Source: Pseudomonas phage LKA1
Length of the DNA: 41,593 nt
Sequence record: AM265639.1
Strand: one strand, 5' to 3'
The translations under genes were made by a program, and so were the position numbers. Positions 299 to 32,271 of the stretch are shown one piece after another. Position 1 is the first letter of the stretch, and each line of letters begins with the position of its first letter. The notes under the pieces are model-generated. The model was not told where the DNA came from. It searched no databases and saw only the letters and a program-made list of their open reading frames with translations.

Positions 299-462
299 TG
301 CCTCTTTTGCCCTGCCCTGCCCTGGTGCGTTACCTGGTCACTGCCATGGCTTCCCTGGTAGCACCTGGCTCGCTTCACTGGTTTCCGTCTTCGCCGGCGG
401 CCTCCTGTTCCGGCCGGCCTTCGAGCGCTCAGTCTGGCCCCGCCGCCTTCGCTTCTCTCATG

Positions 463-476
463 CTAGTGCGACAATT
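463..476 (-). promoter_or_regulatory. T7-promoter-like motif, copy A (leftward); 27-bp identity with copy B
   Basis: The reverse complement of 455-484 reads aaaagaattgtcgcactagcatgagag. The first 25 nt are identical to copy B (17841-17865). The core AATTGTCGCACTAG resembles T7-group promoters (GACTCACTATA). Confidence 0.45.
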
Positions 477-518
477 CTTTTGAATATAAGTACCACTAGG
501 TTATATAACGAATTGGTA

Positions 519-547
519 TTGACGGGGCTTCAGCAGGTCTGTAGAGT
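519..547 (+). promoter_or_regulatory. Sigma70-type promoter TTGACG-N17-TAGAGT, with an AT-rich upstream stretch (478-518)
   Basis: The hexamers and a 17-nt spacer were read directly. It is the first of three early host-type promoters in the left non-coding kb, as expected for phiKMV/T7-like early transcription. Confidence 0.5.
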
Positions 548-691
548 TCGCAGCCATGGTTAGGCCATAAGCAATACGGACTAGCCAACGCAAGGCAAGG
601 TAGTGGTTCTGGTCTAGGGATCAGGTGAGGCGGGCAACGGTACACGCCAACCACTACTGGTCAAGCAAGGCACGGCGAAGGCTAGCCAAGC

Positions 692-719
692 TTGACAAGC
701 CAAGCGGATGCTGTAAGAT
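692..719 (+). promoter_or_regulatory. Sigma70-type promoter TTGACA-N16-TAAGAT
   Basis: Consensus -35 hexamer, 16-nt spacer, good -10. Read directly. Confidence 0.6.
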
Positions 720-951
720 GCGAGTCGTAACTCAAGGTAGCCGCTGCGAACTGGGCTCAGGCTGATGGTTAGCATGCTAGACTGTAATCCCTAGGGTCTA
801 AGGGTTCCGCCGGTCCTAGACGGTGGTCACGTAAAGCCGCTGGTTGATGATTCCAGCAATTGCTAGGCACTGGTCGCGATGGTAAGGCGACAGGCGGCAC
901 GGTCCGGCGAGAGACCGATGGTCGCCAGCTTCACCGCTCTTTAACAAGTCG

Positions 952-1176
952 AGTCTGCTGTGGTAGCCCACTTAACCGGAGTTACCACTATGCGCAACGA
1001 ACGCCAAGCTAACATCGCCCTTGCCAAGCAAGTCGAAAGCAAGTACGATAAAGCCCAACGTATCATGCAAACGCCGCAGCCTTTTGCCTTTCGTCTGGCA
1101 GCGTTGAACGCCAGCGACAGCAATCCGGGTAAGGTATGGTAAACCCGCCTCCCTCGGGAGGCTACCACAGCAGACT
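952..1176. repeat. 17-bp perfect inverted repeat (952-968 and 1160-1176) bracketing the first small ORF
   Basis: agtctgctgtggtagcc and ggctaccacagcagact are exact reverse complements, 191 nt apart. Confidence 0.7.
990..1142 (+). CDS. First early ORF, 50 aa, hypothetical
   Basis: ATG at 990 with GGAG 10 nt upstream, TAA at 1140-1142. It lies between a 17-bp inverted repeat (952-968 / 1160-1176) and is followed by a GCCTCC/GGAGGC hairpin at 1147-1162. It is short, so protein coding is uncertain. Confidence 0.3.
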   Translation: MRNERQANIALAKQVESKYDKAQRIMQTPQPFAFRLAALNASDSNPGKVW

Positions 1177-1204
1177 TGACAAGCGAACGCCCAGTCTGTA
1201 CGAT
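1176..1204 (+). promoter_or_regulatory. Sigma70-type promoter TTGACA-N17-TACGAT
   Basis: Consensus -35 hexamer, 17-nt spacer, -10 TACGAT. It shares cTTGACAAGC with the promoter at 692. Confidence 0.55.
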
Positions 1205-1570
1205 GGGCACCAAGCAAGACGCAAACTGTGACGCGCAGTCAGGTGCCGGGCACCTGCCAACGTATCAGCAGCCTGCTGGTGACGGTCTTCGACTGAATCC
1301 AGAGCACAGGTACACTGAGCGAGGAATAACCTGAGCCGATGACGCATACCGGAGTAGCGTTCGACCGATGGGAGTAGTCCATCCGCACCGCCGGGATTAG
1401 TGGCCAATGCCATGAAGCCGGAAAGCGATAGAACGGCGTGAGTACCCTTACGTTATGGGCGAACCTTGGACACGGCAGGCTGATCCTGCACTGGGCCAAG
1501 GCAGTCCGGGAGTAATGCTCTCCCGCTGATGATGGGCAAGCATGCCCGAAACTGAATAGGAGGCGCAGCC

Positions 1571-1843
1571 ATGCAAGTGAACAATCCCGCTGTAGATCGC
1601 AAGCTGCGCCGCAAGGCGAACCGCCAGCAGCGCCGAACCGCTGCACTCCCGCTTGACCTAGGCGCGATGCAGAAGCGAGCCGAGCACGACGTGCGCTTGC
1701 GCTGCAAGCTCAGCCATGACGCTATCCATGCCGACACGATGAATGAGCGGGCCGCTGCCGCGAAGGCTAAGCGCAAGCTCAACGACGTGTGGACTAATCG
1801 TAACAGCCGGAACCTGACCGGCTTCTGGAATCCGCAAGCATGA
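1571..1843 (+). CDS. Hypothetical early protein, 90 aa, basic
   Basis: Strong RBS AGGAGG before ATG 1571. Arg/Lys-rich product. Overlaps the next gene by ATGA. Confidence 0.55.
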   Translation: MQVNNPAVDRKLRRKANRQQRRTAALPLDLGAMQKRAEHDVRLRCKLSHDAIHADTMNERAAAAKAKRKLNDVWTNRNSRNLTGFWNPQA

Positions 1844-2025
1844 TAGCCAACTGTCTGAGCCAGCACCCTTGCAGCGCCGAGGTTCGCCATGGTGCTTTGA
1901 CGCCGTGCCGCGCCTACGAGCTATACAAGGCTAGGCGCCGCGCCTACCACTTCTCGATAACGCCATTCATCAACTGGTTGATGTGGCGTTTCCACTACAA
2001 AACCGTGCGCCCTGCGGCGCAGTAG
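1840..2025 (+). CDS. Hypothetical early protein, 61 aa
   Basis: ATGA start/stop coupling with the upstream gene. Cys-rich small product. Confidence 0.4.
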   Translation: MIANCLSQHPCSAEVRHGALTPCRAYELYKARRRAYHFSITPFINWLMWRFHYKTVRPAAQ

Positions 2026-2035
2026 GAGACCCACC

Positions 2036-2515
2036 ATGCGTACTCAAAAGCAAATCCTGACCGCCATACAGCACGTTGCTATCACTGGCAAGTGCCTTGA
2101 CGAATCCGTGCAATCTATCGGCTTGGATATCCTCCAGCACGTTGATGCTCACGGGGAAGTAAGTCTGGCGTGCAAACTCCTGAAGGCGCTGCCCAAGGGC
2201 GCCCGTGGCAAGGCATTGGCCGATTGGTTCCAGACCTACGGCAAGATCACCGTGAACACTGACAAGGCCACCGCCAAGCAATTCCCGCTGGTATTCAACA
2301 AGGACGGCAGCACCGACCTAGAAGGCGCAGCCGCCAAGCAATGGTACAAGTGCAAGCCCGACCGCCCGCTGGCCGTCGAGTTTGATTTCGCCTCTCAATT
2401 GGCGTCACTGCTGAAGCGTGCCGCCGAAGCCGAAGCTAAGGGCTTGGCCGTCAAGGGTGCCGACGCCTTGGAGAAGTGCAAGGGGTTGGTGTGCTATGTC
2501 ACCAGTCCGGAATAA
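2036..2515 (+). CDS. Hypothetical early protein, 159 aa
   Basis: RBS GGAGAC before ATG 2036. Long ORF with GC-rich third codon positions. Confidence 0.6.
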   Translation: MRTQKQILTAIQHVAITGKCLDESVQSIGLDILQHVDAHGEVSLACKLLKALPKGARGKALADWFQTYGKITVNTDKATAKQFPLVFNKDGSTDLEGAAAKQWYKCKPDRPLAVEFDFASQLASLLKRAAEAEAKGLAVKGADALEKCKGLVCYVTSPE

Positions 2516-2678
2516 TGGCGACGTAGCCAGAACCTTCGGAGAATTAGCGATAGGCGCAGTGTTCACCGTGAACCAGCACAAGATGCGCAAGCGCTCCAGC
2601 CGCACCGCTGATAGTTTTTTGGTGGGCCGTTGGTTCTACGTAGGCCTAGGCGAGCCAGTGCAGCTATGCAAGTACTAG
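2496..2678 (+). CDS. Possible small overlapping ORF, 60 aa
   Basis: ATG 2496 preceded by AAGGGG. Overlaps the 3' end of 2036..2515 in another frame. Weak support. Confidence 0.25.
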   Translation: MSPVRNNGDVARTFGELAIGAVFTVNQHKMRKRSSRTADSFLVGRWFYVGLGEPVQLCKY

Positions 2679-2767
2679 TCGTAATCTGGTTCCTCCAGCT
2701 CAGCGCCCGGTAGCGGCGCTCGCTGAGGATCACTACCTACCACCGGGCCGAGGACAGCCGCGTGCCG

Positions 2768-2781
2768 GCTGCACTCGCGGC
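2768..2781 (+). promoter_or_regulatory. Conserved hairpin element GCTGCACTCGCGGC, copy 1
   Basis: Lies in a 120-nt intergenic gap, 27 nt before the RBS and ATG at 2808. Followed by CGAAAACC. Confidence 0.4.
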
Positions 2782-2807
2782 TCGAAAACCGTGAAGACGA
2801 GGTGAGT

Positions 2808-2984: not shown

Positions 2985-2985
2985 T

Positions 2986-3306: not shown

Positions 3307-3307
3307 C

Positions 3308-3616: not shown

Positions 3617-3632
3617 CCGCTGCACTCGCAGC
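3611..3632 (+). promoter_or_regulatory. Conserved element CCGTAACCGCTGCACTCGCAGC, copy 2
   Basis: Perfect GCTGC-actc-GCAGC hairpin. Sits in the 45-nt gap before ATG 3662. Followed by CCGAAACC. Confidence 0.45.
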
Positions 3633-3661
3633 CCGAAACCCATCTCGATTAGGAGAGACCA

Positions 3662-4853: not shown

Positions 4854-4862
4854 GGAGTCGTT

Positions 4863-6928: not shown

Positions 6929-6950
6929 CCGTAACCGCTGCACTCGCAGC
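6929..6950 (+). promoter_or_regulatory. Conserved element CCGTAACCGCTGCACTCGCAGC, copy 3
   Basis: 22-nt identity with copy 2. Lies in the 105-nt gap before ATG 6979, after the candidate hairpin at 6893-6920. Confidence 0.45.
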
Positions 6951-11407: not shown

Positions 11408-12413
11408 GAAGCCCCGCCTCTGGCACCCGAGGCCGCACCGTGCGGTGGACTGGAACCAGAAGGCAATCGAGAAGCGTCTGGCCCAAGGCCCGCTCCAGGC
11501 CTGTGTGAAGGTGGATGGGTTCCGCGTACTGATCCGCCTGAACTGCGAAGGGGACGTGGTGTTCACGACCCGCGAGGGTATTGAAATCAGCAGCTTGTCT
11601 GGACTTGCGGAGCACGTCTGTCGCACCCTGTTCACGCCAGATACACCAATGCGGCGCGTGTACGACGGTGAGGTCTGGATCAAGGGCATCCCGTTCGAGG
11701 AGATGTCCGGCCTACTGCGCCGTGATACCCGCCTACCCGACGAGCACCTGAAGAACGTGCACGTCCTGATCTTCGACGTGGGACTACTTGAGGACTACGA
11801 AGGCCCGGACGAGGATCGTGTGCCGAATGTGCTGACCTTGGAGGAGCGTCGCCGACTCATTGGTGCCTTGGGCCTGGCCCCATTCCGCCCGCTGATCGAG
11901 CAACCCACGACCCTGTTGGTCTACGAGCAGTATTGGACCGTCTACACAGTGGGTGGCATCCAGGAGCTGTACCAGCGTGCCCGGGCAGCCGGGTACGAGG
12001 GCCTGATCCTCAAGGACCCCCACCTCTTACCCCGCAACGGCAAGGTGTCCGGGTGGTGGAAGGTGAAGCCTGGTTGCGGCGCCGAGTTCGCGCCTGGGTT
12101 CGAGGCGGATGGTACTGTCATCGACTACGTGTGGGGCGACCCCGATAAGGCGAACGCCAATAAGATCGTCGGGTTCCGGGTACGTCTGGAGGACGGGGCT
12201 GAAGTAAACGCAACCGGGTTGACGCAAGACCAGATGGCCTGTTACACCCAGAGCTACCACGCAACCGCCTATGAGGTTGGCATCACCCAAACCATCTACA
12301 TTGGCCGCGCCTGTCGCGTCTCCGGTATGGAGCGCACTAAAGATGGCAGTATCCGCCACCCACACTTCGACGGGTTCCGCGACATCGACGGGGCTGAGGG
12401 TCTGAAAGCATGA
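11397..12413 (+). CDS. ATP-dependent DNA ligase, 338 aa
   Basis: Adenylation motif I CVKVDGFRVLI (KxDG). Size and position match T7 gp1.3-like ligases. Confidence 0.85.
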   Translation: MSTKKPRLWHPRPHRAVDWNQKAIEKRLAQGPLQACVKVDGFRVLIRLNCEGDVVFTTREGIEISSLSGLAEHVCRTLFTPDTPMRRVYDGEVWIKGIPFEEMSGLLRRDTRLPDEHLKNVHVLIFDVGLLEDYEGPDEDRVPNVLTLEERRRLIGALGLAPFRPLIEQPTTLLVYEQYWTVYTVGGIQELYQRARAAGYEGLILKDPHLLPRNGKVSGWWKVKPGCGAEFAPGFEADGTVIDYVWGDPDKANANKIVGFRVRLEDGAEVNATGLTQDQMACYTQSYHATAYEVGITQTIYIGRACRVSGMERTKDGSIRHPHFDGFRDIDGAEGLKA

Positions 12414-12589
12414 GAAAGAGTTTGATGTTGCAGCTTGGCCCCACGCCAAAGCCCGGAGTCGTGCTAGGGATTGGCTGGGATTGGTCCCGCCCCTGGAAAG
12501 CGACGTACTACCCGCTGGATGGTGGGCGGTTGGTATCCGGGTCCCTCGGTGTGGGCAAGGTGTGGGTATTCTACTGGTGGCGTAAATGA
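12410..12589 (+). CDS. Small ORF bridging ligase and polymerase, 59 aa
   Basis: ATGA at the ligase stop and ATGA at the polymerase start. I translated it by hand. It is Trp/Gly-rich, so weak. Confidence 0.3.
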   Translation: MRKSLMLQLGPTPKPGVVLGIGWDWSRPWKATYYPLDGGRLVSGSLGVGKVWVFYWWRK

Positions 12590-17270: not shown

Positions 17271-17679
17271 AACGCAGCTCAGGGGCTGGTCGATCAGCCA
17301 CCTCACGAACGCGCAGGGTGGCCTCTGTCCGCTCTGTGGTAAGCCGATTGACTACAGCATCCCACGGGAAGCGGTGGTCGATCACGACCACGATACAGGC
17401 GAAATCCGGGGCGTCCTGCACCGATCCTGTAATGCGGCGGAAGGCAAGGTCAGCAACGCAGCCGGTAGGTGGGGTGCCAAGAGCACTAGCTACGCCGATA
17501 TCGTGCCGTTCCTGGAGAATCTGGTCCAGTACCTGAAAAGCACCGGTACTGGGTTAATGTACCCAGGCCACAAGTCACCCGAAGAAGCCGCCGAGGCGAA
17601 GCGGGTAAAACGCAATAAAGCAGCAGCAGTGCGCCGGGCAGCCGCCAAGGTCCGCACCATGCCGCGTAAGGAGACCTGA
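17254..17679 (+). CDS. Recombination endonuclease VII, 141 aa
   Basis: CPLCGKPID ... VVDHDHDTGEIRGVLHRSCNAAEG matches the endonuclease VII zinc/His signature (C-x2-C ... DHDH ... RG.LC..CN). GGAGG before ATG 17254. Confidence 0.8.
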   Translation: MRKLTRTQLRGWSISHLTNAQGGLCPLCGKPIDYSIPREAVVDHDHDTGEIRGVLHRSCNAAEGKVSNAAGRWGAKSTSYADIVPFLENLVQYLKSTGTGLMYPGHKSPEEAAEAKRVKRNKAAAVRRAAAKVRTMPRKET

Positions 17680-18710
17680 TGGGTAAGCACCTCGTAACAC
17701 GCAAGAGCTTCTCGGACGAGGACATTGCCAAGGCACTGTTGGTTGGCGGTGGTAACAAGACCCACGCAGCACAACACCTCACGAATATGGGACGCGGGGT
17801 AGTAAGTCGGGAACTCCTGCGACACTGGTTAAAACAGGGTAAAAAGAATTGTCGCACTAGCATGAGTGAAACGACGGGCGAGCAGGCCGGATGTGCCACG
17901 AGTGCTGCGGGAACGGGGACCCGCCCCGTCGAAGACGGCCCATGTATCCTGAGCATCGACATCGAGACGAGTCCCATCGAAGGTCGAGTGTGGGGACTCT
18001 GGAAGCAGAACCTCGGACTGAACCAGATCACCAAGGAATGGAACATCCTCAGCTACTGTGCGAAGTGGCTGGGTGATCCTAACGTGATCTACTCCGACCT
18101 CTCCCAGGCAGAGAACATTGCAGATGATAGTAAGCTAGTAGCTGAGCTGTACGAACTGCTGAATGAAGCAGACCTTGTAGTGGCACAGAACGGTAAGCGA
18201 TTCGATCTACCGAAGATTCAAGCCCGCTTCGTGATGGCTGGTTACAAACCACCTCGCCCGTTCCGCGTAATCGACACCATGCTCATGGCGAAGCAGCAGT
18301 TCGGCTTCACCAGTAACAAGCTGGAGTGGATGACCGACAAACTCTGCACCACCAAGAAGCGCAAGCATGAGAAGTTCCCCGGTATGGAGTTGTGGAACCA
18401 GTGCTTGGCAGGCAACCCGGAAGCCTGGGAGGAGATGCGGCTGTACAACATCGACGACGTAATCTCGTTGGAGGAGTTGTACTTGATCCTACGCCCCTGG
18501 TATCAAGGCCATCCGAACGTGGCGGTGTTCAACGATGGGCAGGAGATCGCTTGTCCGAAGTGCGGCTCGCACGACCTCAAGCGCGATGGGTGGACATTCA
18601 CCCAGTCCGGTAAGTACGAGCTTTATCATTGCAACGGTTGCGGCGGTTACAGCCGTGGACGCTACACCAAAAACTCGAAGGAGGTGCGTTATGCCCAGCT
18701 ATCCAATTGA
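17679..18710 (+). CDS. DEDD-type exonuclease with N-terminal HTH-like segment and C-terminal zinc ribbon, 343 aa
   Basis: ILSIDIETSP is a DEDD exo motif I (DxE). C-terminal CPKCGS ... CNGCGG. The first ~60 aa (DIAKALLVGGGNKTHAAQHLTNMGRGVVSRELLRHWL) look like a separate HTH. The T7-promoter-like motif B and an in-frame ATG (17862) sit exactly at that boundary. Confidence 0.6.
   Translation: MGKHLVTRKSFSDEDIAKALLVGGGNKTHAAQHLTNMGRGVVSRELLRHWLKQGKKNCRTSMSETTGEQAGCATSAAGTGTRPVEDGPCILSIDIETSPIEGRVWGLWKQNLGLNQITKEWNILSYCAKWLGDPNVIYSDLSQAENIADDSKLVAELYELLNEADLVVAQNGKRFDLPKIQARFVMAGYKPPRPFRVIDTMLMAKQQFGFTSNKLEWMTDKLCTTKKRKHEKFPGMELWNQCLAGNPEAWEEMRLYNIDDVISLEELYLILRPWYQGHPNVAVFNDGQEIACPKCGSHDLKRDGWTFTQSGKYELYHCNGCGGYSRGRYTKNSKEVRYAQLSN
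17847..17860 (+). promoter_or_regulatory. T7-promoter-like motif, copy B
   Basis: aaaagaattgtcgcactagcATGagtg lies inside the exonuclease ORF. It is immediately followed by an in-frame ATG at the boundary between the HTH and exonuclease parts. Confidence 0.45.
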
Positions 18711-19197
18711 ATACACCTATGAATCCGAGCGCTACTTCTACAGAATCCCCAGCAAACTAGGCCGAGGGTACGGGTATGATTACTGGAGCAAGGAAGGTTC
18801 CGCATGGGTGGGTGGGTACGGTACGCCCGTAGAACCGCCCCTGGTGGGCGGGGAAAGGAGCGACGCCGCCTTCAAGGCGGACACCGGCAAGTCTCGCTGG
18901 ACCCTCCTACTGGACTGCGCCAGGGGTTGTGGTCGGGCAGTGCGTGCCGTGGTTCGTGTACTGAACTTCGCAGTGCGCCCTATCGCTGACGGTGGCAAGG
19001 GGTACATCCCGCATTCGTGGCGCCAAGTACCGGACGCACGTACCCGCTATGAGGATGCCCTGCACCGCCACCTCGACGCGATCCGTGACGGTGAGACTCA
19101 CGATGGCGAGAGCGGCGAGTCGCACTGGGCACACGTTGCCACGAACGCACTGTTCCTCTGGGAACTCGATAATCCGAAGGAGAAGACTGATGAGTGA
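18691..19197 (+). CDS. Hypothetical protein, 168 aa
   Basis: GAAGGAGG before ATG 18691. Overlaps the upstream 3' end by 20 nt. Confidence 0.5.
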   Translation: MPSYPIEYTYESERYFYRIPSKLGRGYGYDYWSKEGSAWVGGYGTPVEPPLVGGERSDAAFKADTGKSRWTLLLDCARGCGRAVRAVVRVLNFAVRPIADGGKGYIPHSWRQVPDARTRYEDALHRHLDAIRDGETHDGESGESHWAHVATNALFLWELDNPKEKTDE

Positions 19198-19381
19198 GTG
19201 CCTATCGTGCTTGCGCGGCCCTGGCTGCTGCAAACTGTTCCCACGGAAAGTCTTCAATGCAGAGGTACTCGACATCAACGAGCTGCGCGTGTACCACGCC
19301 AGGAACGTAGATGAAGCCGCTGCACTCGCGGCTGAGGAGTTCGGCGAAAACAACATTGGCCGCGTGTACCCTAAGCTCTAA
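19190..19381 (+). CDS. Hypothetical protein, 63 aa; carries hairpin element copy 4
   Basis: ATG 19190 overlaps the upstream stop. The GCCGCTGCACTCGCGGC palindrome lies inside its 3' part, about 60 nt before the RNAP start. Confidence 0.4.
   Translation: MSECLSCLRGPGCCKLFPRKVFNAEVLDINELRVYHARNVDEAAALAAEEFGENNIGRVYPKL
19316..19332 (+). promoter_or_regulatory. Conserved element GCCGCTGCACTCGCGGC, copy 4
   Basis: Perfect GCCGC-tgcactc-GCGGC palindrome about 60 nt before the RNAP start. It is embedded in the 3' part of the small upstream ORF. Confidence 0.4.
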
Positions 19382-19390
19382 GGACCTGTG

Positions 19391-21826
19391 ATGATCGACC
19401 CTATCGAAGCGCAGATGCAGCGCGAGAAGCGCCACAGCGCTGAGGCTACTGCCCAGCACCTACGCGAAGTTCAAGAGGCCCTGCGTGCCGGCAGGGTCGA
19501 TGACATCCCAGCAGCCCGTCGCCTCATCGCCCGTGTGTACGAGGATGTGCGGGCTGCACTGGAGCCGGTTGTGGAGACCAAGGCACGCGGCCCAGGAGCA
19601 GCCCTGCGTGGCTGGCTGCGCCGGGTGCCTATCGACACCCTCGCCGTTCTGAGCATCCGCGTCGTCCTGGCGCACGTCATGCGGGACACCGCCGAGTCAC
19701 CAGCCACCCTACAACGCATCGGCCACGCCCTCGGGCGGGCCATCGAGCAGGAGGCCCTGGTGCAGGAGGCATACCGTGCGAACGCGCTGTACCTCGACCG
19801 GACTTGGGAGTACCTGCGCACAGCGGGCACGACCAGTCAGCGGCACATTCAGAAGACGATGCGTGCTGTGGTACACAACGTCCTGGAAGGTCAGTTCGAC
19901 GGGCACCTGACGAACGCTGAGTACATCCACCTCGGCAAGCACGGCCTCCAGGCGTGCCTGGATGCTGGTCTGGTGGAGTTGCAGCGGCACGGGCAGGGTG
20001 CGAAGACGAATGCGATCTACGTCCTCCCGGCTGAGGTGCGGGAGGTCCTCGCCTTCGTGCCACCTGAGATTAGCGGTGCAGCGCAGATGATGTTCGCTGA
20101 GCCGACCCCATGGGACGGGGCGGCGGGCGGCGGGTACTACACCGAGCGTATGAAGATCGACTTCCCACTGCGCCGTGTGAACCGCCGTACTCGCAAGCCG
20201 TTGCGCCGCGTCATCCGGGACAACGTGGGGAAATGCACCGATGTGCTCGCCTGTGCGAACTACCTCCAGGCCCAGGCGTTCAGCATACACACCCCCACCT
20301 TGGAGCTGATCAAGCAGGTGTGGAACAGCGGCGGCGGTGCCCTGGGCATCCCGAAGCGCGAGGCACCGCCCGAGCCGGCGTTCCCATTCCCAGAGACCTG
20401 GGACAAGGACTCAGCTACCGAGGCGGAGCTGGAGCGCTTTGCGAGTTGGAAGCGCCGTATGCACGCCTGGCACATGGGTAAGAAGGAACTCCGCAAAGCA
20501 CAGCAAGGCATCGGCCAGGCCCTCCGTGTCTCTGCCGGCGCTGCTGCTCGAGTGTGGTTCCCGACGTTCATCGACAGCCGTGGTCGGTACTACTACCGTG
20601 GGGTGTTGAACCCGCAAGGGGACGAGATGTGTAAGGCGCTGTTGCACTTCGCCGACAAGCGCCCGCTGGGCGAGCGTGGCCTGTACTGGATACAGGTGCA
20701 TGTGGCGAACTGCTTCGGCGAGGACAAGGCACGCTTCGATGCTCGGGCAGCCTGGGCTGTTGAGCGCAAGGCTGAGTTGTTCGCAGCCCTGGAGGCACCG
20801 GCAGACTCGTGCTTTGCCGAGGCCGACACCCCGCTCGGGGCATTCGCTGCCGTGTGGGAATGGCGCGAGGCCGAGCGCTCCGGCAACCCAGCAGCGTACT
20901 GCACTGGCCTGCCGATCCACATGGACGCGACCTGCTCTGGCCTCCAGCACTTCTCAGCGATGCTCCGCGACCCGGTGGGTGGGCAGTACGTGAACCTGTA
21001 CGACAGCGGTGGCGACTCCAAGGCCGACATCTACCGCAAGGTGGCCGAGGTGGCGCAGACCCGGATCAACCGCGACGCAGCCAACCCGGCCTCGAAGGAC
21101 TGGCACCTGGCCAAGCTCTGGACCCAGTGGGAGATTCCCCGCACCCTGGCTAAGGGGCCTGTAATGACCTACGTATATGGCGCGACACTGCGCGGTGTAG
21201 CGGAGGGCATTGCCGACTGGCTGGAAGAGCAACAGGCGATCGTGCCCGATGGTGTCCGTATCTTCGACCTAGCATACTACCTGGGCCGTGTGCTGTTCTC
21301 GGCAATCGAGGATGTGGTGCCTGCTGCCGCCGCAGCGATGCGTTGGCTCCGGGAGCGGGCACGCAGCGCCGCTGGCGACACACCGATGTTGTGGTTCAGC
21401 CCGACTGGCCTACTGGTCGAGCACGACTACCGCGACTTCGTGGAGCACCGGGTTAAGATCAGGTCGTGCGGTATCACGGACATCGTGGTGCGGGAGGACC
21501 TGGACCAGACCCGAGGCAACCGGATGCAGAATGCCGTGGCACCGAACTTCGTACACGCCCTAGACGCAGCGCACCTAACCTTCACGGCCCGACTGCTGGA
21601 GGACGGTGGACATGCAATGGTGGCGATCCACGACAGCTTTGGTACACACCCCTCTAGCGTGGATGAAATGCACACAGCTATCCGGGAGGCGTTTGTGCGG
21701 CTGTACTCGGAGTTCGATCCTATCACTCTGTTCCTGCGTGGGATCGGGCAGGAGGAGGTAGCACCACCGCCGAAAGGGAACCTGGACTTGACCCTGTTCC
21801 GAAGCTCGGAATTTGGGTTCTGTTAA
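19391..21826 (+). CDS. Single-subunit DNA-dependent RNA polymerase (T7-like), 811 aa
   Basis: Catalytic motif C AIHDSFGTH. Palm motif A region LPIHMDATCSGLQHFSAM. Size and placement at the end of the replication block are phiKMV-type. Confidence 0.95.
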   Translation: MIDPIEAQMQREKRHSAEATAQHLREVQEALRAGRVDDIPAARRLIARVYEDVRAALEPVVETKARGPGAALRGWLRRVPIDTLAVLSIRVVLAHVMRDTAESPATLQRIGHALGRAIEQEALVQEAYRANALYLDRTWEYLRTAGTTSQRHIQKTMRAVVHNVLEGQFDGHLTNAEYIHLGKHGLQACLDAGLVELQRHGQGAKTNAIYVLPAEVREVLAFVPPEISGAAQMMFAEPTPWDGAAGGGYYTERMKIDFPLRRVNRRTRKPLRRVIRDNVGKCTDVLACANYLQAQAFSIHTPTLELIKQVWNSGGGALGIPKREAPPEPAFPFPETWDKDSATEAELERFASWKRRMHAWHMGKKELRKAQQGIGQALRVSAGAAARVWFPTFIDSRGRYYYRGVLNPQGDEMCKALLHFADKRPLGERGLYWIQVHVANCFGEDKARFDARAAWAVERKAELFAALEAPADSCFAEADTPLGAFAAVWEWREAERSGNPAAYCTGLPIHMDATCSGLQHFSAMLRDPVGGQYVNLYDSGGDSKADIYRKVAEVAQTRINRDAANPASKDWHLAKLWTQWEIPRTLAKGPVMTYVYGATLRGVAEGIADWLEEQQAIVPDGVRIFDLAYYLGRVLFSAIEDVVPAAAAAMRWLRERARSAAGDTPMLWFSPTGLLVEHDYRDFVEHRVKIRSCGITDIVVREDLDQTRGNRMQNAVAPNFVHALDAAHLTFTARLLEDGGHAMVAIHDSFGTHPSSVDEMHTAIREAFVRLYSEFDPITLFLRGIGQEEVAPPPKGNLDLTLFRSSEFGFC

Positions 21827-21838
21827 TTGTCGCACTAT
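21825..21838 (+). promoter_or_regulatory. T7-promoter-like motif, copy C, at the RNAP stop codon
   Basis: ttaattgtcgcactataatga overlaps the RNAP TAA. An RBS (AGGAG) follows about 10 nt downstream. This is the first position from which late or structural transcription would be expected. Confidence 0.5.
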
Positions 21839-21856
21839 AATGACCAGGAGAAAACC

Positions 21857-22087
21857 GTGCCCAAAGAAAGCGATGCACAGGTTAAGTTCACACCAGACCA
21901 GATCGTATGGTTGCTCAAGACCTTCGGGTCCCAGCCCATCGGCCCTGGTCTGGATGTGCACACAGTTATGTACGAGGCAGGTCGGGACAGCGTGATCGCT
22001 GCCTGTATTGCCAGATGCTCAGCCCCGGAGACTTTGCACCGTGCCCTCAGTAATCTACAACTTGCGGCAGCCAGGGGAACCCACTGA
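21857..22087 (+). CDS. Hypothetical protein, about 76 aa, GTG start
   Basis: AGGAG 6 nt before GTG 21857. The ORF track starts it at TTG 21827, inside promoter-like motif C. No in-frame ATG near the 5' end. Confidence 0.35.
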   Translation: MPKESDAQVKFTPDQIVWLLKTFGSQPIGPGLDVHTVMYEAGRDSVIAACIARCSAPETLHRALSNLQLAAARGTH

Positions 22088-22100: not shown

Positions 22101-22478
22101 ATGGATGAGGCGTGGGGTGAGTGTTCCGAGCTGCAGTTTACATCCCTTCAGGATTTTAAGCGACGTGCTCATGAGAGCGTGTGCTCCATCGAGCGCCTGG
22201 AGGTCTTGGCCACCGTGGGTGGTCGGGCAGCCGGGATCGCTGTACTCGCAGTTGACGATGATCTGCACGTAGGCGAGTGCCTCGCGGTGCAGTGGCAGTA
22301 CGTCCTGCCTGAGTTCAGGAACGCGGGGGTGTCCCCAGCGTTCCTTCGAGTGGCCAAGAATCTGGCCCGACAACTGAACCTCCCGACGATAGCCTTTACT
22401 CACCGGCTTGGGCCGGGGGTTTACAAGACAAGCTACAGGAGGGTCTATGGCCAAAAAGATCAAAAAGGCAGTGGGTAG
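22101..22478 (+). CDS. Hypothetical protein, 125 aa, weak GNAT-like signature
   Basis: ATG 22101 follows the upstream TGA. The segment VLPEFRNAGVSPAFLRVAKNLARQLNLPTIAF loosely resembles the GNAT acetyl-CoA binding motif. Tentative. Confidence 0.4.
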   Translation: MDEAWGECSELQFTSLQDFKRRAHESVCSIERLEVLATVGGRAAGIAVLAVDDDLHVGECLAVQWQYVLPEFRNAGVSPAFLRVAKNLARQLNLPTIAFTHRLGPGVYKTSYRRVYGQKDQKGSG

Positions 22479-26101: not shown

Positions 26102-26132
26102 GGACCTATCCTTCGGGGTAGGTCCTTTTTTT
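26102..26132 (+). terminator. Rho-independent terminator after the capsid gene
   Basis: GGACCTATCC-ttcg-GGGTAGGTCC 10-bp stem with a TTCG tetraloop, followed by TTTTTTT. Equivalent in position to T7 T-phi. Confidence 0.85.
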
Positions 26133-26172
26133 GGTTCTTCTCGCCGAGAAGGCCCAACAAAAGGAGATTCCT

Positions 26173-29068: not shown

Positions 29069-29697
29069 TGGCATTACCAGCACTACTCGCCATCGGCGGG
29101 TTGTCGGCAGCCCAAGGTATCTTCGGCGGGTTGCAACAACGCCAGCAGATTAAGGCGCAGAATAAACTCACCAAGGAAGCCAACCGCAGGAACGTCCTAG
29201 AGGCGTTCCAGGGCGTGTCGGCTATCGAGGTGCAGCGCGGGCAGGTACGCACACAGACCGCCAAGAACCTCCAGTTAGCGGGGCGTATGGCGGACGAGGT
29301 GCGTGGCAGTACCCGCGCCGCCCAGGCCGCTGCGGGGGTGCAGGGCGCAAGCGTTGACGCAACCCTGGACGATATTGACCGCGAGCAGGCCGAGGTATCT
29401 GTTGAGCTACAGCAGCAGCACATCGCGCAGGAGTACGACCTGAACAACCGTATCCGTGAGCTGATGCTCGGCACCCGTGCGGGCTTGGGCCAGCTCCAGA
29501 AGGTTCCGAGTATCGGGAGCATCCTTCTCGGGGGCCTTGTCCAGGGTGGCCTGTCAGCAGGTTCCGCATACGCCTCTCAGGCGTTCTCGTTCGGTAGTTT
29601 CGGTAGCACATCAACCACTGGCGGCACATACGGCCAAAGCGGCGTAGCTGTTGCCGGTCAGGCTGGATTCCGCTCGGGCGTAGGGCCTGGGCGATAG
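29068..29697 (+). CDS. Internal virion protein (T7 gp13/gp14-like), 209 aa
   Basis: Position directly after tubular B. Gly/Ala/Gln-rich. Confidence 0.5.
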   Translation: MALPALLAIGGLSAAQGIFGGLQQRQQIKAQNKLTKEANRRNVLEAFQGVSAIEVQRGQVRTQTAKNLQLAGRMADEVRGSTRAAQAAAGVQGASVDATLDDIDREQAEVSVELQQQHIAQEYDLNNRIRELMLGTRAGLGQLQKVPSIGSILLGGLVQGGLSAGSAYASQAFSFGSFGSTSTTGGTYGQSGVAVAGQAGFRSGVGPGR

Positions 29698-29706
29698 GAG
29701 AGTAAT

Positions 29707-32271
29707 ATGGCTGAACTCGATCCGCCGCGCTTGCGGCTAGCTACTGGCAACCTGGGCCAGGTGGGTGGTTACAACCCGCAACGATTCCAGGCAGAGCGTG
29801 CGCAGGCCGAGGACAACGTAGCGCTCCAGGCCCTGAGTGGCCTGCTCCAGATTGGCGAGAGTATCGCTCAGGAGAAGTTCGCTTCCGACGTGAAGCAGGA
29901 GTACATGCAGGGTCAGCGGGCACGGATGCTCGGGCAGGCCCTGGAGGATGTGGAGGGCGATCCGCTCGCCCGCCCGTTCATCCGGGGCGGGTTCCAAGAT
30001 CAAGACTACCGTATCCGCCAGGCGGAGATGAGTCAGCGGGTGCAGGCGTTCATCCAAACCAAGGGGCGCATGTTGCCGCCTGAGCAGTTCCTTCAGGAGT
30101 TGGGGCGAGAGTCCCGTGCGATCCTAGAGGGTATGGGTGACGGCCTGTCTAATCAGGGCCGTGCCCAGGCCCTCGCCTCCCAGACTCAACTGGAGGAGGC
30201 CCTCGTCGGTGCCCACGCTAAGGCATACAAGGCGTGGGGTATTGAGGAGGTTGGTAAGCGCATCTCTGCGCAGGGCAACAGTATCCTGACAAGCTACGGC
30301 AAGGCCAAGCTCGGCGGTGACTTCGAGGCGCAGCAGCAGTACGCCTCGCAGATTGTAGGCTTCTACCGCGACGTGGCTGCCTCTGACACCCTGCCCGAGG
30401 ACATGCGGCAGCAGGTGGCTGAGCAGTTCCTGATGGGTGTGCTCAGTGAAGATCACCGCGAGGTGGTCACAGCCATGAAGGACATGGGCCTCCTGGACAC
30501 CCTTGGGTTCGACACCCGGACAAAGGTGAACGAGGGGATTCGAGCCTCGGAGGGCCGTACCCGCGCCCTGGACGCCGTGGGGATCAGCCGCAGCTCTGCT
30601 GAGTTCGAGGCCCGTGTCGAGCAAGGTGCCATTACGCCCGAGGATATGCTGCTGTATACGGCGCAGGAGGCTGCTGCGGGGCGCATGACAGCGAATCAGC
30701 AGAAGGCCCTGTGGGACAAGTGGTACACGTCGAGGTCGAACAAGCAGGCATTGGTGGGTGCTATGGACGCCCTGCAACGGGGTGATAAGCAGGCCCTGGA
30801 CAATCTCGGCTGGTCCGTACCCGAGGCCCTGGACGCCTGGTACGAGCAGGCAGACCTCCAGCAAATGCCAGTGGCCACTAAGGCCGCAACAGCCCTGCGT
30901 ATGGGGGCACGCCTCGGCACCCTCCCTAAACGCGCAGCGACTGAGGTGAGCGCCGCCGTGCGCAGTTTGACCCTGAACCCGGATGCTGCAAACCCAGCAC
31001 AGGTCGAGCTTGTGCGGGCCTTCGCGGACGAGGCCATTCGAGTGTCCACCACGAACCCGGAAGGGGAGTCAACCCTCCTTAGCGCCCTGGATCGAGAGAT
31101 TCAACCCCTGTTCAGCCAGATGCTAGTGGACGTGCCAAACGGCACTGACCCGGTGCAGAGCCTACGCAATGCGGCCCTGGCCCAGGCAGCCTACGAACGG
31201 CAGGATCAGCCGTCCAGGCAGGCCCAGACCCGCAAGCTGGAGGAGGCTGTCCAGGCTGAGATTCAGACTGGCAAGTTCTCCCAGCTCTGGGGGCTTGTCA
31301 CGGAAGGTAGCAGAACCCGGAACGAGGGTCAAGCGTTCGAGACGCTGCGGGCACAGACTACCATGGAGGCAGCTGCCCTGGCACGCCAGCCCCAGTACGC
31401 CGGGTTGGCGCCCAGTGCGATTGCGAAACTGGCTGCCGCCAGAGTCAAGGAACGCACCATCGAAGTCAGCCCGGAGGGTAGCAAGACCACGCGGGTAGTG
31501 CTTCCAAGAAATGTCGCACTAGAACGACTAGTAGATAACCCCCGAGCCACAAAAGATCGGGTGTCGGCTGCACTGGTGACATTGTACCCACCATCTGCGA
31601 AAGGATTCCAACGGGAGTTCTACACGGACGGTGTAGGCGTGTGGACGACGGAAGTGGATTCCGATGGCGTCCCCGCAGCGCCGGAGCTGGTGAATTGGCA
31701 GCGGGTCAGTCAGCAGATCGACAAGCAGATCGACGAGACTGTCGGCAAGGCCAACCGTGCTTACGTGGGTGAGGTGGTTAAGCACGGCGAGGTCGAGCTG
31801 AGTATCTCAGGCCGCACAAGCACGAGTATCCGACCGGACGCTGTGTTGCAGTGGCGCCGCGATCTTGTGCAGCAAGAGGGTATTCGCCTGACTGCGTACA
31901 AGGATCGTAACGGCGTAGCCATAGGCGTCGGCGAGAACGTCACTGGGCGCATGAAGGTCGGCGACACGATCACCCGCGAAGAAGCCGAGTTGGCATTCCT
32001 CGACAGTTCCGACAGGGCACTGCTGGAAGGCGAGCGCATTGCGCAAGAGCTGGGCGTAACTGCTGTGTGGTCGAAGCTGGCCCTTGGCAGCGCCGTGTAT
32101 CAGCTCGGCCCGCAAGGTGCCCGTGGGTTCGAGAAGACCTTCGAGGCAATCCGCAACAAGGACTTCGACACCTTCGAGAAGCAGGTGCGGAAGTCCAAGT
32201 GGTACAAGCAAACCCCAGATCGTGCCGAATACTTCATCACGAAGATGCAGGGGCACTTCTACGGAAACTAA
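29707..32271 (+). CDS. Internal virion protein with C-terminal T4-lysozyme-like (GH24) domain, 854 aa
   Basis: The C-terminal ~150 aa (QEGIRLTAYKDRNGVAIGVGENV ... KSKWYKQTPDRAEYFITKMQG) align with T4 lysozyme ([23 protein letters not shown] ... [22 protein letters not shown]), including the catalytic Glu. Confidence 0.8.
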   Translation: MAELDPPRLRLATGNLGQVGGYNPQRFQAERAQAEDNVALQALSGLLQIGESIAQEKFASDVKQEYMQGQRARMLGQALEDVEGDPLARPFIRGGFQDQDYRIRQAEMSQRVQAFIQTKGRMLPPEQFLQELGRESRAILEGMGDGLSNQGRAQALASQTQLEEALVGAHAKAYKAWGIEEVGKRISAQGNSILTSYGKAKLGGDFEAQQQYASQIVGFYRDVAASDTLPEDMRQQVAEQFLMGVLSEDHREVVTAMKDMGLLDTLGFDTRTKVNEGIRASEGRTRALDAVGISRSSAEFEARVEQGAITPEDMLLYTAQEAAAGRMTANQQKALWDKWYTSRSNKQALVGAMDALQRGDKQALDNLGWSVPEALDAWYEQADLQQMPVATKAATALRMGARLGTLPKRAATEVSAAVRSLTLNPDAANPAQVELVRAFADEAIRVSTTNPEGESTLLSALDREIQPLFSQMLVDVPNGTDPVQSLRNAALAQAAYERQDQPSRQAQTRKLEEAVQAEIQTGKFSQLWGLVTEGSRTRNEGQAFETLRAQTTMEAAALARQPQYAGLAPSAIAKLAAARVKERTIEVSPEGSKTTRVVLPRNVALERLVDNPRATKDRVSAALVTLYPPSAKGFQREFYTDGVGVWTTEVDSDGVPAAPELVNWQRVSQQIDKQIDETVGKANRAYVGEVVKHGEVELSISGRTSTSIRPDAVLQWRRDLVQQEGIRLTAYKDRNGVAIGVGENVTGRMKVGDTITREEAELAFLDSSDRALLEGERIAQELGVTAVWSKLALGSAVYQLGPQGARGFEKTFEAIRNKDFDTFEKQVRKSKWYKQTPDRAEYFITKMQGHFYGN
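31509..31522 (+). promoter_or_regulatory. T7-promoter-like motif, copy D
   Basis: agaaatgtcgcactagaacga lies inside the 854-aa internal virion protein gene, about 750 nt before its end. Confidence 0.4.

What the first reader, a model, noticed from the sequence alone, without database searches (positions are those of the whole stretch)
455..31528. Four copies of a 22-27-bp T7-promoter-like motif (aAGAAtTGTCGCACTAgcATGA), placed where phage-RNAP promoters would be expected
Copies lie at 463-476 (minus strand), 17847-17860, 21825-21838 and 31509-31522. Copies A and B are identical over 25 nt (aaaagaattgtcgcactagcatgag). Copy C (aattgtcgcactataatga) overlaps the RNAP stop codon, which is exactly where late transcription by the phage polymerase should begin. 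The core GTCGCACTAtA is reminiscent of T7/K11-class promoters (CGACTCACTATA, CACACTATA). Copies B and D sit inside long ORFs yet are conserved, which implies selection at the DNA level. phiKMV-group phage promoters are poorly defined, so a clean consensus here would be useful.
Basis: partly seen in the sequence, partly recalled or inferred. Interest (0 to 1): 0.75.

Follow-up and report, generated by a model that had tools for sequence, protein, structure and literature searches.

The report
Phage LKA1 RNA-polymerase promoters, four copies
The four repeated 17-22-base motifs are almost certainly the promoters read by this Pseudomonas phage's own RNA polymerase; this is an ordinary kind of element, but it seems not to have been written down for this phage lineage, and its relatives show polymerase and promoter changing together.

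Summary
TGTCGCACTA occurs exactly four times (464-473 minus; 17850, 21828 and 31512 plus), against 0.06 expected. The shared consensus is (A/T)TGTCGCACTAnnAYGA.

The window is a complete 41,593-bp phage genome with 298-bp terminal repeats and 60.9% GC. These values match those published for Pseudomonas phage LKA1 (Stubburvirus).

The promoter reading is strongly supported by comparison, though no transcript data exist.
- The motif is homologous in sequence and register to two experimentally mapped promoters: the KP34 strong promoter (5'-RACE, in vitro) and the LUZ19 promoters (ONT-cappable-seq).
- It has the same layout: one copy between the left repeat and the host promoters (antisense, as in LUZ19), one at the RNAP stop codon, and one inside an internal-virion-protein gene.
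- In about 10 close relatives each copy is an invariant island in variable flanks.
- In more distant relatives all copies change together (TGCGACACTA, TGTCACACTA), and the changes track RNAP specificity-loop residues.
- A mobile intron-like insert in the RNAP gene of two relatives carries whichever promoter version its host phage uses.

The predicted start is the invariant G five bases after CACTA: 459 (minus), 17864, 21842 and 31526. Copy B lies upstream of the host-RNAP-inhibitor and RNAP genes, which implies positive feedback.

Verdict: a new member of a known kind, of moderate interest.

The parts
455..481 (-). Promoter copy A (AAAAGAATTGTCGCACTAGCATGAGAG). Core 464-473, predicted +1 at 459. 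It points leftwards into the 298-bp terminal repeat and sits between the repeat and the first host-type promoter (519-547).
   Evidence: Conserved in HHBS14_1. Antisense end-proximal analogues occur in LUZ19 at 736-748 (-), L052 and L050, and phi-2 and RSB3. LUZ19 P001 is an experimentally mapped antisense phage promoter (PMC10914365).
17841..17866 (+). Promoter copy B (AAAAAGAATTGTCGCACTAGCATGAG), predicted +1 at 17864. It lies in the variable N-terminal linker of the RNase_H_2/exonuclease-like gene (17679-18710), 1.5 kb upstream of the RNAP gene.
   Evidence: A 20-nt invariant island across 9 relatives: 2/22 variable positions against 131/380 in the flanks, p=0.008. Analogues in L053, L054 and L058 carry the lineage-specific core.
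18613..19381 (+). Genes between copy B and the RNAP gene: a dATP/dGTP diphosphohydrolase-like protein (18613-19197) and the gp2-like host-RNAP inhibitor (19190-19381, LKA1 gp36).
   Evidence: Pfam PF18909, E=9e-25. PF16857 RNA_pol_inhib scores 22.2 bits, below its cut-off of 27. LKA1 g36 is named as a host-RNAP inhibitor in PMC5537680. No plus-strand terminator-like site lies between B and the RNAP gene.
19388..21826 (+). Single-subunit RNA polymerase gene (812 aa). The specificity-loop region is aa 681-704 (21428-21499). The residue aligned with T7 N748 is K690 (codon 21455-21457).
21822..21843 (+). Promoter copy C (GTTAATTGTCGCACTATAATGA), overlapping the RNAP stop codon. Predicted +1 at 21842, giving a 15-nt leader with SD AGGAG before the GTG at 21857 of the first late gene (21857-22087).
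   Evidence: A 26-nt invariant island: 1/22 against 129/377 variable, p=0.0016. KP34 (22197; RNAP stop 22191) and LUZ19 (21118; stop 21110) have a promoter at the same place, as do 10 further relatives.
26102..26125 (+). Strong intrinsic-terminator-like hairpin plus T-run after the major capsid gene. This is context for why a downstream re-initiation promoter (D) is useful.
   Evidence: 10-bp stem with 6 GC pairs, followed by TTTTTTT.
31506..31527 (+). Promoter copy D (AAGAAATGTCGCACTAGAACGA), predicted +1 at 31526. It lies inside the internal virion protein gene (29707-32271), at about codon 601, upstream of the lysozyme domain (aa 722-834).
   Evidence: A 35-nt invariant island: 1/22 against 75/377 variable, p=0.054. 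Analogues in L054 and L055 carry the lineage-specific core. KP34 (33721) and LUZ19 (35593) have a promoter inside the next internal-virion-protein gene.
1..298 (.). Left direct terminal repeat, identical to 41296-41593. Transcription from copy A runs into it.
   Evidence: D1. The size matches the published LKA1 DTR.
519..1204 (+). Cluster of sigma-70-like host promoters (519-547, 692-719, 1021-1049, 1176-1204) that start early transcription rightwards. Copy A lies back-to-back with the first one.

Best explanation
The four motifs are the promoters recognised by the phage-encoded single-subunit RNA polymerase (gene 19388-21826) of Pseudomonas phage LKA1.

Recognition element and start site. The element is about 20 bp: an AT-rich upstream part (AAGAAT / GTTAAT / AGAAA), the core TGTCGCACTA, two free bases, then A-Y-G-A. 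Transcription most likely starts at the invariant G of YGA: 17864, 21842 and 31526 on the plus strand, and 459 on the minus strand.

What each copy does.
- Copy C, at the RNAP stop codon, starts late transcription.
- Copy D re-initiates transcription of the distal late genes (internal virion protein, tail fibres, terminase, lysis) downstream of the capsid-gene terminator.
- Copy B drives phage-RNAP-dependent expression of the host-RNAP inhibitor and of the RNAP gene itself. This is a positive-feedback switch from host to phage transcription.
- Copy A fires leftwards across the terminal repeat or concatemer junction, like LUZ19 P001. It may insulate the early genes from late read-through or help junction processing.

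Shown versus inferred. Shown: the existence, conservation, homology, layout and covariation of the motif. Inferred: actual initiation, the exact +1, and the roles of copies A and B.
For: 1. Statistics. There are 4 exact copies of the 10-mer (0.06 expected) and no near-variants.

2. Homology and register with mapped promoters.
- KP34 strong promoter T(A/G)ATGTTACAGGAGTA has +1 at the next base, by 5'-RACE and in-vitro transcription (PMC6834552).
- The LUZ19 motif GgtTATGTCACacACAnnGG comes from ONT-cappable-seq (PMC10914365).
- Aligned on TGT, all share TGT(C/T)(A/G)CA and G-A at positions 15-16.
- LKA1 copy A positions 15-24 (GAGAGAAGCG) are identical to the same positions of the phi-2 motif.

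3. Same layout. KP34 has copies at 475, 22197 (RNAP stop 22191) and 33721. LUZ19 has copies at 736 (-), 21118 (stop 21110), 21315 and 35593.

4. DNA-level selection. In 6-9 relatives with 84-98% RNAP identity, each copy is the longest or second-longest invariant run in about 400 nt whose flanks vary at 20-35% of columns. In copy B the coding sequence right after the motif diverges and carries indels, while the motif stays fixed.

5. Concerted evolution. In L054 (RNAP 70% identical) the B, C and D analogues all read TGCGACACTA. In L052/L055 (63%) and L050/L058 (57%) all copies read TGTCACACTA.

6. Covariation with the RNAP specificity loop. The residue aligned with T7 N748, plus the three residues after the loop gap, pair with the core as follows:
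- K + ..D with TGTCGCA;
- D + ..K with TGCGACA;
- R + .(E/Q)Y with TGTCACA (including LUZ19 and phi-2);
- A + MQY with TGTGACA.
These classes are not monophyletic on a rough NJ tree.

7. Natural experiment. A homologous group-I-intron-like insert of about 770 nt splits the RNAP motif-B codons in L010 and L058. It carries a motif copy 37 nt upstream of its ORF. The copy reads TGTCGCACTA in the LKA1-type phage and TGTCACACTA in the other, within otherwise near-identical flanks.

8. Gene context. Copy C is followed by SD AGGAG and a GTG start 15 nt after the predicted +1.

9. Generality. Four further phage genomes (three Krylovirinae, plus Ralstonia phage RSB3) each have a motif of 3-9 copies with one copy directly after the RNAP stop.
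Against: - No transcript 5' ends or in-vitro transcription data exist for LKA1 in anything I could read.
- The +1 is inferred. Position 14, which is +1 in KP34, is a pyrimidine here, so the start may be at position 13, 14 or 15.
- The specificity-loop alignment to T7 contains a gap, so the residue equivalences are approximate.
- The covariation table has only about 13 RNAPs, and the NJ tree is rough.
- The intron assignment is weak (Rfam 21 bits against a gathering score of 50; no Pfam hit for the ORF).
- Copy A was seen in only one close relative (HHBS14_1) and two more distant ones.
- I could not read the original LKA1 genome paper (Ceyssens 2006), so the motif may already be reported there.
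Confidence: 0.9

Rival explanations
1. The motifs are recognition sites of a phage nicking system, giving localized single-strand interruptions as in phiKMV, LUZ19, LKD16 and phikF77, which have four nicks at CGACN5CCTA/CTCCGG.
For: phiKMV-type phages carry exactly four nick sites. The LUZ19 genome has 4 exact matches to that consensus. LKA1 lacks the consensus entirely (best matches have 2-3 mismatches, at chance level). So if LKA1 DNA is nicked, some other motif must be used, and four is the right number.
Against: - In LUZ19 the nick sites and the mapped promoters are different sequences at different places. The LKA1 motif is homologous to the promoters, not to the nick sites.
- Nick sites in phiKMV-, T5- and tf-type phages all lie on one strand (PMC3517423). 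Here the split is 3 plus and 1 minus.
- A nickase reading does not explain the covariation with the RNAP specificity loop or the copy placed in front of an intron ORF.
Confidence: 0.03
2. The motifs are binding sites for another phage DNA-binding protein, for example a late regulator, a replication or packaging factor, or a homing-endonuclease target, rather than for the RNAP.
For: Conservation and concerted change only show that a co-evolving phage-encoded reader exists, not which protein it is. Copy A lies next to the terminal repeat, where packaging or replication signals are expected.
Against: - The homologous KP34 sequence is sufficient for initiation by purified RNAP alone in vitro (PMC6834552).
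- Base changes track residues of the RNAP specificity loop.
- The orientation and spacing relative to SD and start codons fit a promoter.
Confidence: 0.04
3. The repeats are chance or coding-driven, or (for copy C) a host sigma-70 promoter, because CACTATAAT contains a perfect -10 hexamer.
For: 37 other 10-mers occur 4 or more times in this genome. Copy C contains TATAAT at 21836-21841, with TTGGGT 17 nt upstream (read).
Against: - The full 17-22-nt motif has 0.00 expected matches.
- The motif is AT-rich in a 61% GC genome and is invariant where synonymous and even non-synonymous sites vary.
- The TATAAT is absent from copies A, B and D, and becomes TATAAC in relatives L004 and L053.
- The -35 match is only 3 of 6, and the sigma-70 scan did not call it.
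Confidence: 0.02

Closest known systems
LUZ19 / Phikmvvirus phage-specific promoters (5'-GgtTATGTCACacACAnnGG-3'; Putzeys et al. 2024, PMC10914365)
   Same: Same subfamily (Krylovirinae). Four copies per genome. One antisense copy between the left terminal repeat and the host promoters, one directly after the RNAP stop codon, and one inside an internal-virion-protein gene. They share the TGTC-CAC core and G-A at positions 15-16.
   Different: The core reads TGTCGCACTA, not TGTCACaCACA. The upstream part is AAGAAT/GTTAAT, not GCGGtTA. Position 14 is a pyrimidine, not G. LKA1 has one copy after the RNAP gene (LUZ19 has two) and one copy 1.5 kb upstream of the RNAP gene (LUZ19 has none). The RNAPs are only about 38% identical, and their specificity-loop residues differ (K/ITD against R/VEY). 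LKA1 belongs to another genus (Stubburvirus) and was not in the 2024 screen.
Klebsiella phage KP34 strong promoter (5'-T(A/G)ATGTTACAGGAGTA-3', +1 at the next G; Lu et al. 2019, PMC6834552)
   Same: Same register (TGT at positions 1-3, start at about position 14-15). Three copies at equivalent places: left end, just after the RNAP stop, and inside an internal virion protein gene. The RNAP gene likewise sits after the DNA-metabolism genes.
   Different: The KP34 left-end copy is on the plus strand. The core is TGTTACAGGA. RNAP identity is about 32%. KP34 also has an unrelated weak promoter inside the RNAP gene, and no equivalent was looked for here.
T7-group promoters (TAATACGACTCACTATAGGGAGA)
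   Same: Same kind of element: a promoter of about 20 bp for a single-subunit RNAP, with an AT-rich upstream part, a specificity region read by the specificity loop, and a purine-rich initial transcript. Copy C shares TAAT....CACTATA with T7.
   Different: Only CACTA is shared by all four copies, and under the KP34/phi-2 register it lies 3 nt further from the start than in T7. There are 4 copies rather than 17. The RNAP is about 28% identical. The RNAP gene lies at the end of the middle region, so the phage RNAP transcribes mainly late genes.
phiKMV-type localized nick sites (CGACN5CCTA/CTCCGG; Kulakov et al. 2009, cited in PMC3517423)
   Same: Four copies of a roughly 19-nt motif per genome in the same phage group. 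They were once annotated as 'phage-specific promoters' (LUZ19 RefSeq features).
   Different: The sequence is unrelated, is absent from LKA1, and lies on a single strand.

Membership tests
Promoters of phage single-subunit (T7-like) RNAPs, phiKMV/KP34 class | The genome encodes a single-subunit RNAP, and a conserved motif of about 16-23 bp is present in several copies. | tested here: met
   The RNAP ORF is 19388-21826, with PF00940-type homologues. There are 4 copies of a 17-22-nt motif.
Promoters of phage single-subunit (T7-like) RNAPs, phiKMV/KP34 class | Sequence and register homology to experimentally mapped promoters of related RNAPs. | tested here: met
   The shared TGT(C/T)(A/G)CA core and G-A at positions 15-16 match KP34 (5'-RACE) and LUZ19 (cappable-seq). 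Positions 15-24 of copy A are identical to those of phi-2.
Promoters of phage single-subunit (T7-like) RNAPs, phiKMV/KP34 class | [quoted passage not shown] | tested here: met
   [quoted passage not shown] KP34 and LUZ19 have the same arrangement.
Promoters of phage single-subunit (T7-like) RNAPs, phiKMV/KP34 class | Promoter bases co-vary with the RNAP specificity loop across relatives. | tested here: met
   Four promoter classes match four loop classes across 13 RNAPs. All copies within a genome change together. The alignment to T7 residue numbers is approximate.
Promoters of phage single-subunit (T7-like) RNAPs, phiKMV/KP34 class | Primary transcripts start at the site, and purified RNAP initiates there. 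| not testable with these tools
   No LKA1 transcript-start or in-vitro data were found in the accessible literature.
phiKMV-type localized nick sites | Match to the consensus CGACN5CCTACTCCGG. | tested here: not met
   The best matches in the window have 2-3 mismatches: 10 found against 6.2 expected. LUZ19 has 4 exact matches.
phiKMV-type localized nick sites | All sites lie on the same strand. | tested here: not met
   Three copies are on the plus strand and one on the minus strand.
phiKMV-type localized nick sites | A physical single-strand break in virion DNA. | not testable with these tools
   This needs a denaturing gel or run-off sequencing of virion DNA.
T7-group (Teseptimavirus) class II/III promoters | The 23-bp consensus TAATACGACTCACTATAGGGAGA. 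| tested here: not met
   Only CACTA is common to all copies. Copy C alone has CACTATA. The RNAP is about 28% identical to T7 RNAP.
Bacterial sigma-70 promoters | -35 and -10 hexamers with a 16-18-nt spacer. | tested here: not met
   The scan calls none of the four sites on the relevant strand. Only copy C has TATAAT, its -35 matches 3 of 6, and the hexamer is not conserved in relatives.

The most novel reading that the evidence does not exclude
The antisense, end-proximal promoter (copy A) is a conserved functional module of Krylovirinae-type phages and not a stray copy. It is seen in LKA1, HHBS14_1, two metagenomic relatives and LUZ19, eight-fold in tandem in phi-2, and also in RSB3. Phage RNAP fired from it across the terminal repeat or concatemer junction would be needed either to block late read-through into the early genes of the next genome unit, or to open the junction for terminal-repeat duplication and packaging, analogous to the transcription-dependent concatemer processing of T7. 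Together with copy B, which gives autocatalytic expression of the RNAP and the host-RNAP inhibitor, this would make a four-promoter circuit that times the whole infection.
Probability: 0.3. Interest if true: 0.6.

Novelty: new member of a known kind. Interest (0 to 1): 0.42.

Why it matters
- It gives a precise, testable promoter consensus and predicted start sites for the LKA1/Stubburvirus RNA polymerase. This lineage is only about 38% identical to the nearest characterised enzyme, so it is a candidate orthogonal polymerase-promoter pair for synthetic biology and in-vitro transcription.
- The set of relatives shows single-base promoter switches paired with a few specificity-loop residues. That is a compact natural recognition code for phiKMV-type polymerases, and it can be tested by swapping residues.
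- The placement of copies A and B suggests how these phages, with only about four promoters, organise the host-to-phage transcription switch and shield the early region.
- It also allows the LKA1 genome annotation to be completed.

Tried and rejected
- phiKMV nick consensus in the window: absent. The nick-site reading was rejected on strand and homology grounds.
- T7 class II pause signal ATCTGTT downstream of copy A: one match elsewhere in the genome, at chance level, so uninformative.
- Sigma-70 reading of copy C: rejected.
- IMG/VR scan for TTGTCGCACTANNAYGA: 37 loci, but apart from the already known LKA1-like contigs these are single, scattered, presumably chance hits. A first attempt failed for having too few specified bases.
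- Exact-protein look-up of the first early gene, to reach copy A in metagenomic relatives: nothing on record. The closest primase cluster representative sits on a 949-nt contig. Copy A could therefore be checked only in HHBS14_1, L050 and L052.
- The original LKA1 paper (Ceyssens 2006, PMC1595506) and the supplements of PMC10914365 and PMC11880802 are not held. I could therefore not check whether the motif was printed there, nor obtain exact LUZ19 TSS coordinates.
- A full-text search for the string TGTCGCACTA found only unrelated primer sequences.
- LKA1 itself (NC_009936) is not in the phage collection.
- Pfam search of the intron ORF: no hit. The Rfam group I intron hit is below threshold.

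Full report
**What the window is.** The window is a complete linear phage genome. Bases 1-298 are repeated exactly at 41296-41593, the length is 41,593 bp, and the GC content is 60.9%. These are the published values for Pseudomonas aeruginosa phage LKA1 (41,593 bp, 298-bp DTR, 60.9% GC, NC_009936; PMC3072928; PMC3765740), now classified as Stubburvirus LKA1 (PMC7552054). LKA1 itself is not in the searchable phage collection. The nearest record is phage HHBS14_1, at 90.7% DNA identity and 97.5% RNAP identity. Gene order is phiKMV-like, with all genes on the plus strand:
- host-type promoters at 519-1204;
- early genes, then DNA metabolism genes;
- the RNAP gene at 19388-21826;
- structural, packaging and lysis genes.

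**The observation.** TGTCGCACTA occurs exactly four times: 464-473 on the minus strand, and 17850, 21828 and 31512 on the plus strand. The expected count is 0.06, and no site lies within one mismatch.
- The four copies share (A/T)TGTCGCACTAnnAYGA, with an AT-rich 5' extension.
- A and B are identical over 25 nt and 33/36 over 36 nt.
- C starts in the RNAP stop codon.
- B and D lie inside ORFs 17679-18710 (RNase_H_2-type exonuclease subunit) and 29707-32271 (internal virion protein with a C-terminal lysozyme domain).
- A 10-mer seen four times is not in itself rare in this genome, since 37 others reach that count. The motif stands out because it is 17 or more nt long, AT-rich (36-43% GC) and conserved.

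**Comparison with mapped promoters.** Two relatives have experimentally defined promoters.
- *KP34.* 5'-RACE and in-vitro transcription with purified RNAP defined T(A/G)ATGTTACAGGAGTA, with +1 at the next base (PMC6834552). Its copies are at 475, at 22197 (six bases after the RNAP stop) and at 33721 (inside an internal virion protein gene), all on the plus strand.
- *LUZ19.* ONT-cappable-seq found four phage-specific promoters with the motif GgtTATGTCACacACAnnGG. One is antisense near the left end, two are just after the RNAP gene, and one is in the structural region. The motif is conserved in 15 other Phikmvvirus species (PMC10914365). I located the copies at 736 (-), 21118, 21315 and 35593.

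Aligned on TGT, the LKA1, LUZ19 and KP34 motifs share TGT(C/T)(A/G)CA at positions 1-7 and G-A at positions 15-16. The layout is also the same: a copy between the left repeat and the host promoters, a copy at the RNAP stop codon, and a copy inside an internal-virion-protein gene. The minus-strand orientation of copy A is therefore not an anomaly. It reproduces LUZ19 P001.

**Selection at the DNA level.** I collected about ten close relatives: HHBS14_1, three IMG/VR contigs and six metagenome contigs, with 84-98% RNAP identity. All copies that fall within the contigs are retained. In alignments of 200 nt either side of each copy, the motif is an island of invariance.

| Copy | Variable positions in motif | Variable positions in flanks | p |
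|---|---|---|---|
| B | 2 of 22 | 131 of 380 | 0.008 |
| C | 1 of 22 | 129 of 377 | 0.0016 |
| D | 1 of 22 | 75 of 377 | 0.054 |

In copy B the protein-coding sequence immediately 3' of the motif diverges and carries indels in the 84% relative, while the 20 nt up to CACTA do not change. The only variable motif positions are 11, 12 and 14 (T or C). A13, G15 and A16 are fixed.

**Concerted change in more distant relatives.** Through protein searches and contig look-ups I obtained phages whose RNAPs are 51-70% identical to the LKA1 enzyme.
- In L054 (70%) the B, C and D analogues all read TGCGACACTA.
- In L052/L055 (63%) the antisense left-end copy, two copies after the RNAP gene and the D analogue all read TGTCACACTA.
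- In L050/L058 (57%) five copies read TGTCACACTA.
- L059 (51%) has TGCGACAC.
- L056 (61%) has TTGTCGCAGGTA after the RNAP stop.

Within each genome all copies agree, and between genomes they differ. This is the pattern expected of sites read by a rapidly co-evolving phage protein.

**Covariation with the polymerase.** I aligned the RNAPs with T7 RNAP. The residue aligned with T7 N748 (in T7 this residue selects bases -10/-11; my own knowledge), together with the three residues after the loop gap, partitions exactly with the promoter core.

| N748-equivalent | Loop triplet | Core | Phages / RNAPs |
|---|---|---|---|
| K | (I/L)(T/V)D | TGTCGCA | LKA1, P0045, P0049 |
| D | (V/L)(S/A)K | TGCGACA | P0046, P0055 |
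| R | x(E/Q)Y | TGTCACA | P0048, L058, LUZ19, phi-2 |
| A | MQY | TGTGACA | phiB1_1, MR6 |
| R | LSA | TGTTACA | KP34 |

On a rough NJ tree these classes are not monophyletic, so loop and promoter appear to have switched together more than once. The four additional genomes (phiB1_1, MR6, phi-2, RSB3) were fetched as a check. In each, a motif of 3-9 copies has one copy directly after the RNAP stop codon.

**A natural experiment.** In two relatives (L010, LKA1-type; L058, TGTCACAC-type) the RNAP gene is split within the codons of catalytic motif B (GPV|MTYVYG). The split is caused by a homologous insertion of about 770 nt that encodes a 180-193-aa ORF. Rfam gives only a sub-threshold group I intron hit (21 bits), and the ORF has no Pfam match. 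The insertion carries a copy of the motif 37 nt upstream of the ORF's ATG. The flanking insert sequence is nearly identical in the two phages, but the motif reads TGTCGCACTA in L010 and TGTCACACTA in L058, in each case the version used by the host phage. A mobile element that needs expression in its host phage would be expected to do exactly this.

**Start site.** KP34's +1 is position 14, counting the T of TGT as 1. LUZ19 and phi-2 have G-G-A at 14-16, and the LKA1-type motifs have Y-G-A. Positions 15-24 of LKA1 copy A (GAGAGAAGCG) are identical to positions 15-24 of the phi-2 motif. Single-subunit RNAPs strongly prefer to start with a purine (established knowledge for T7, SP6 and KP34), so I predict +1 at G15: 17864, 21842 and 31526 on the plus strand and 459 on the minus strand, with an uncertainty of about 2 nt. 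For copy C this gives a 15-nt leader, GACCAGGAGAAAACC, with a Shine-Dalgarno sequence before the GTG at 21857. The T7-like string CACTATA in copy C would put +1 at position 13. That position is not conserved in the wider family, so I consider the T7 resemblance partly superficial.

**Roles of the four copies (inference).**
- *C* starts late transcription.
- *D* lies 5.4 kb downstream of a strong terminator-like hairpin after the capsid gene (26102-26125). It would restore transcription of the distal late genes, much as phi13 and phi17 follow T-phi in T7.
- *B* is specific to the LKA1-like clade (LKA1, L053, L054, L058). It lies upstream of a dATP/dGTP diphosphohydrolase-like gene, of the gp2-like host-RNAP inhibitor (LKA1 gp36; Pfam 22 bits; named in PMC5537680) and of the RNAP gene, with no plus-strand terminator-like site in between. 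Phage RNAP would thus amplify both its own synthesis and the shut-off of host RNAP.
- *A* fires leftwards into the terminal repeat. The LUZ19 authors suggested that such transcripts prevent read-through into early genes on circular or concatemeric DNA. A role in junction processing is also conceivable. Antisense end-proximal copies recur in L050, L052, phi-2 (eight in a tandem array) and RSB3, which argues that the orientation is functional.

**Rivals.**
- *Nick sites.* This reading was taken seriously because phiKMV-type phages have four nicks at CGACN5CCTACTCCGG. That consensus is absent from LKA1. In LUZ19 it marks the four features once annotated as 'phage-specific promoters', which are distinct from the real promoters. 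The LKA1 motif is homologous to the promoters, is not strand-uniform, and co-varies with the RNAP.
- *Another DNA-binding protein.* This cannot be formally excluded without biochemistry, but it is unnecessary, given that KP34 RNAP alone initiates at the homologous sequence.
- *Chance, coding constraint, or a sigma-70 promoter.* These are excluded.

**Novelty.** The kind of element is well known. Promoters of this class were defined for KP34 in 2019 and for the genus Phikmvvirus in 2024, and a 2025 study mined such promoters computationally (PMC11880802). I found no accessible paper that gives the LKA1 motif. [quoted passage not shown] 2006...)'. However, I could not read the 2006 genome paper or the 2025 supplement. 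I therefore rate this a new member of a known kind. Three points add specialist interest: the loop-promoter code, the promoter-carrying intron, and the promoter upstream of the RNAP gene.

Noticed in passing
window 2766-2781, 3617-3632, 6935-6950, 19317-19332 (+): A second repeated element, CCG(T)AACCGCTGCACTCGC(A/G)GC. It contains a small hairpin (GCTGC-ACTC-GCAGC) and sits 28-70 nt upstream of the start codons at 2808, 3662 and 6979 and of the RNAP gene. There are 6 matches at up to 3 mismatches against 1.5 expected. It may be an RNA-processing or regulatory hairpin of early and middle transcripts (D2, 97, 98).
   Followed up: partly
window 213-359 and 41508-41567: The heptamer CCCTGGT occurs six times within 150 nt, spanning the inner end of the left terminal repeat and the sequence just to its right, and again in the right repeat (25 in the genome against 8 expected). 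This is a repeat array next to the genome ends, lying in the path of transcription from copy A.
   Followed up: no
L010 11757-12540; L058 about 11790-12533: In two relatives the RNAP gene is interrupted within the catalytic motif-B codons (GPV|MTYVYG). The interruption is a homologous group-I-intron-like insertion of about 770 nt with a 180-193-aa ORF of unknown family (Rfam Intron_gpI 21 bits, below threshold; no Pfam hit). P. syringae phages Draal01-03 and Drael01 also show split RNAP genes in the tblastn table.
   Followed up: partly
L002 (LUZ19 NC_010326) 3130, 6753, 14413, 24765: The four RefSeq features labelled 'phage-specific promoter sequence' are exact matches to the phiKMV nick-site consensus CGACN5CCTACTCCGG. 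They are not the promoters later mapped by ONT-cappable-seq, so the database annotation is misleading.
   Followed up: yes
L062 (phi-2 NC_013638) 42371-43113 (-): The 105-bp tandem repeat array at the end of the phi-2 record contains eight antisense copies of that phage's RNAP-promoter motif (TAATGTCACATATATAGGAGAGAAGCG). This multiplies the antisense end-proximal promoter seen once in LKA1 and LUZ19.
   Followed up: partly
window 446-481 versus 17842-17877: The similarity of copies A and B extends about 20 nt into the predicted transcript (GAG(A/T)GAA(G/A)CGA(A/C)GG). The same GAGAGAAGCG leader follows the motif in L054 B, L050 A and all phi-2 copies. This suggests a preferred initially transcribed sequence, as with T7 GGGAGA.
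   Followed up: partly
window 31513-31528: Copy D alone contains a short inverted repeat, GTCGCACTAGAACGAC. The terminator scan flagged it on the minus strand, but it is probably incidental.
   Followed up: no
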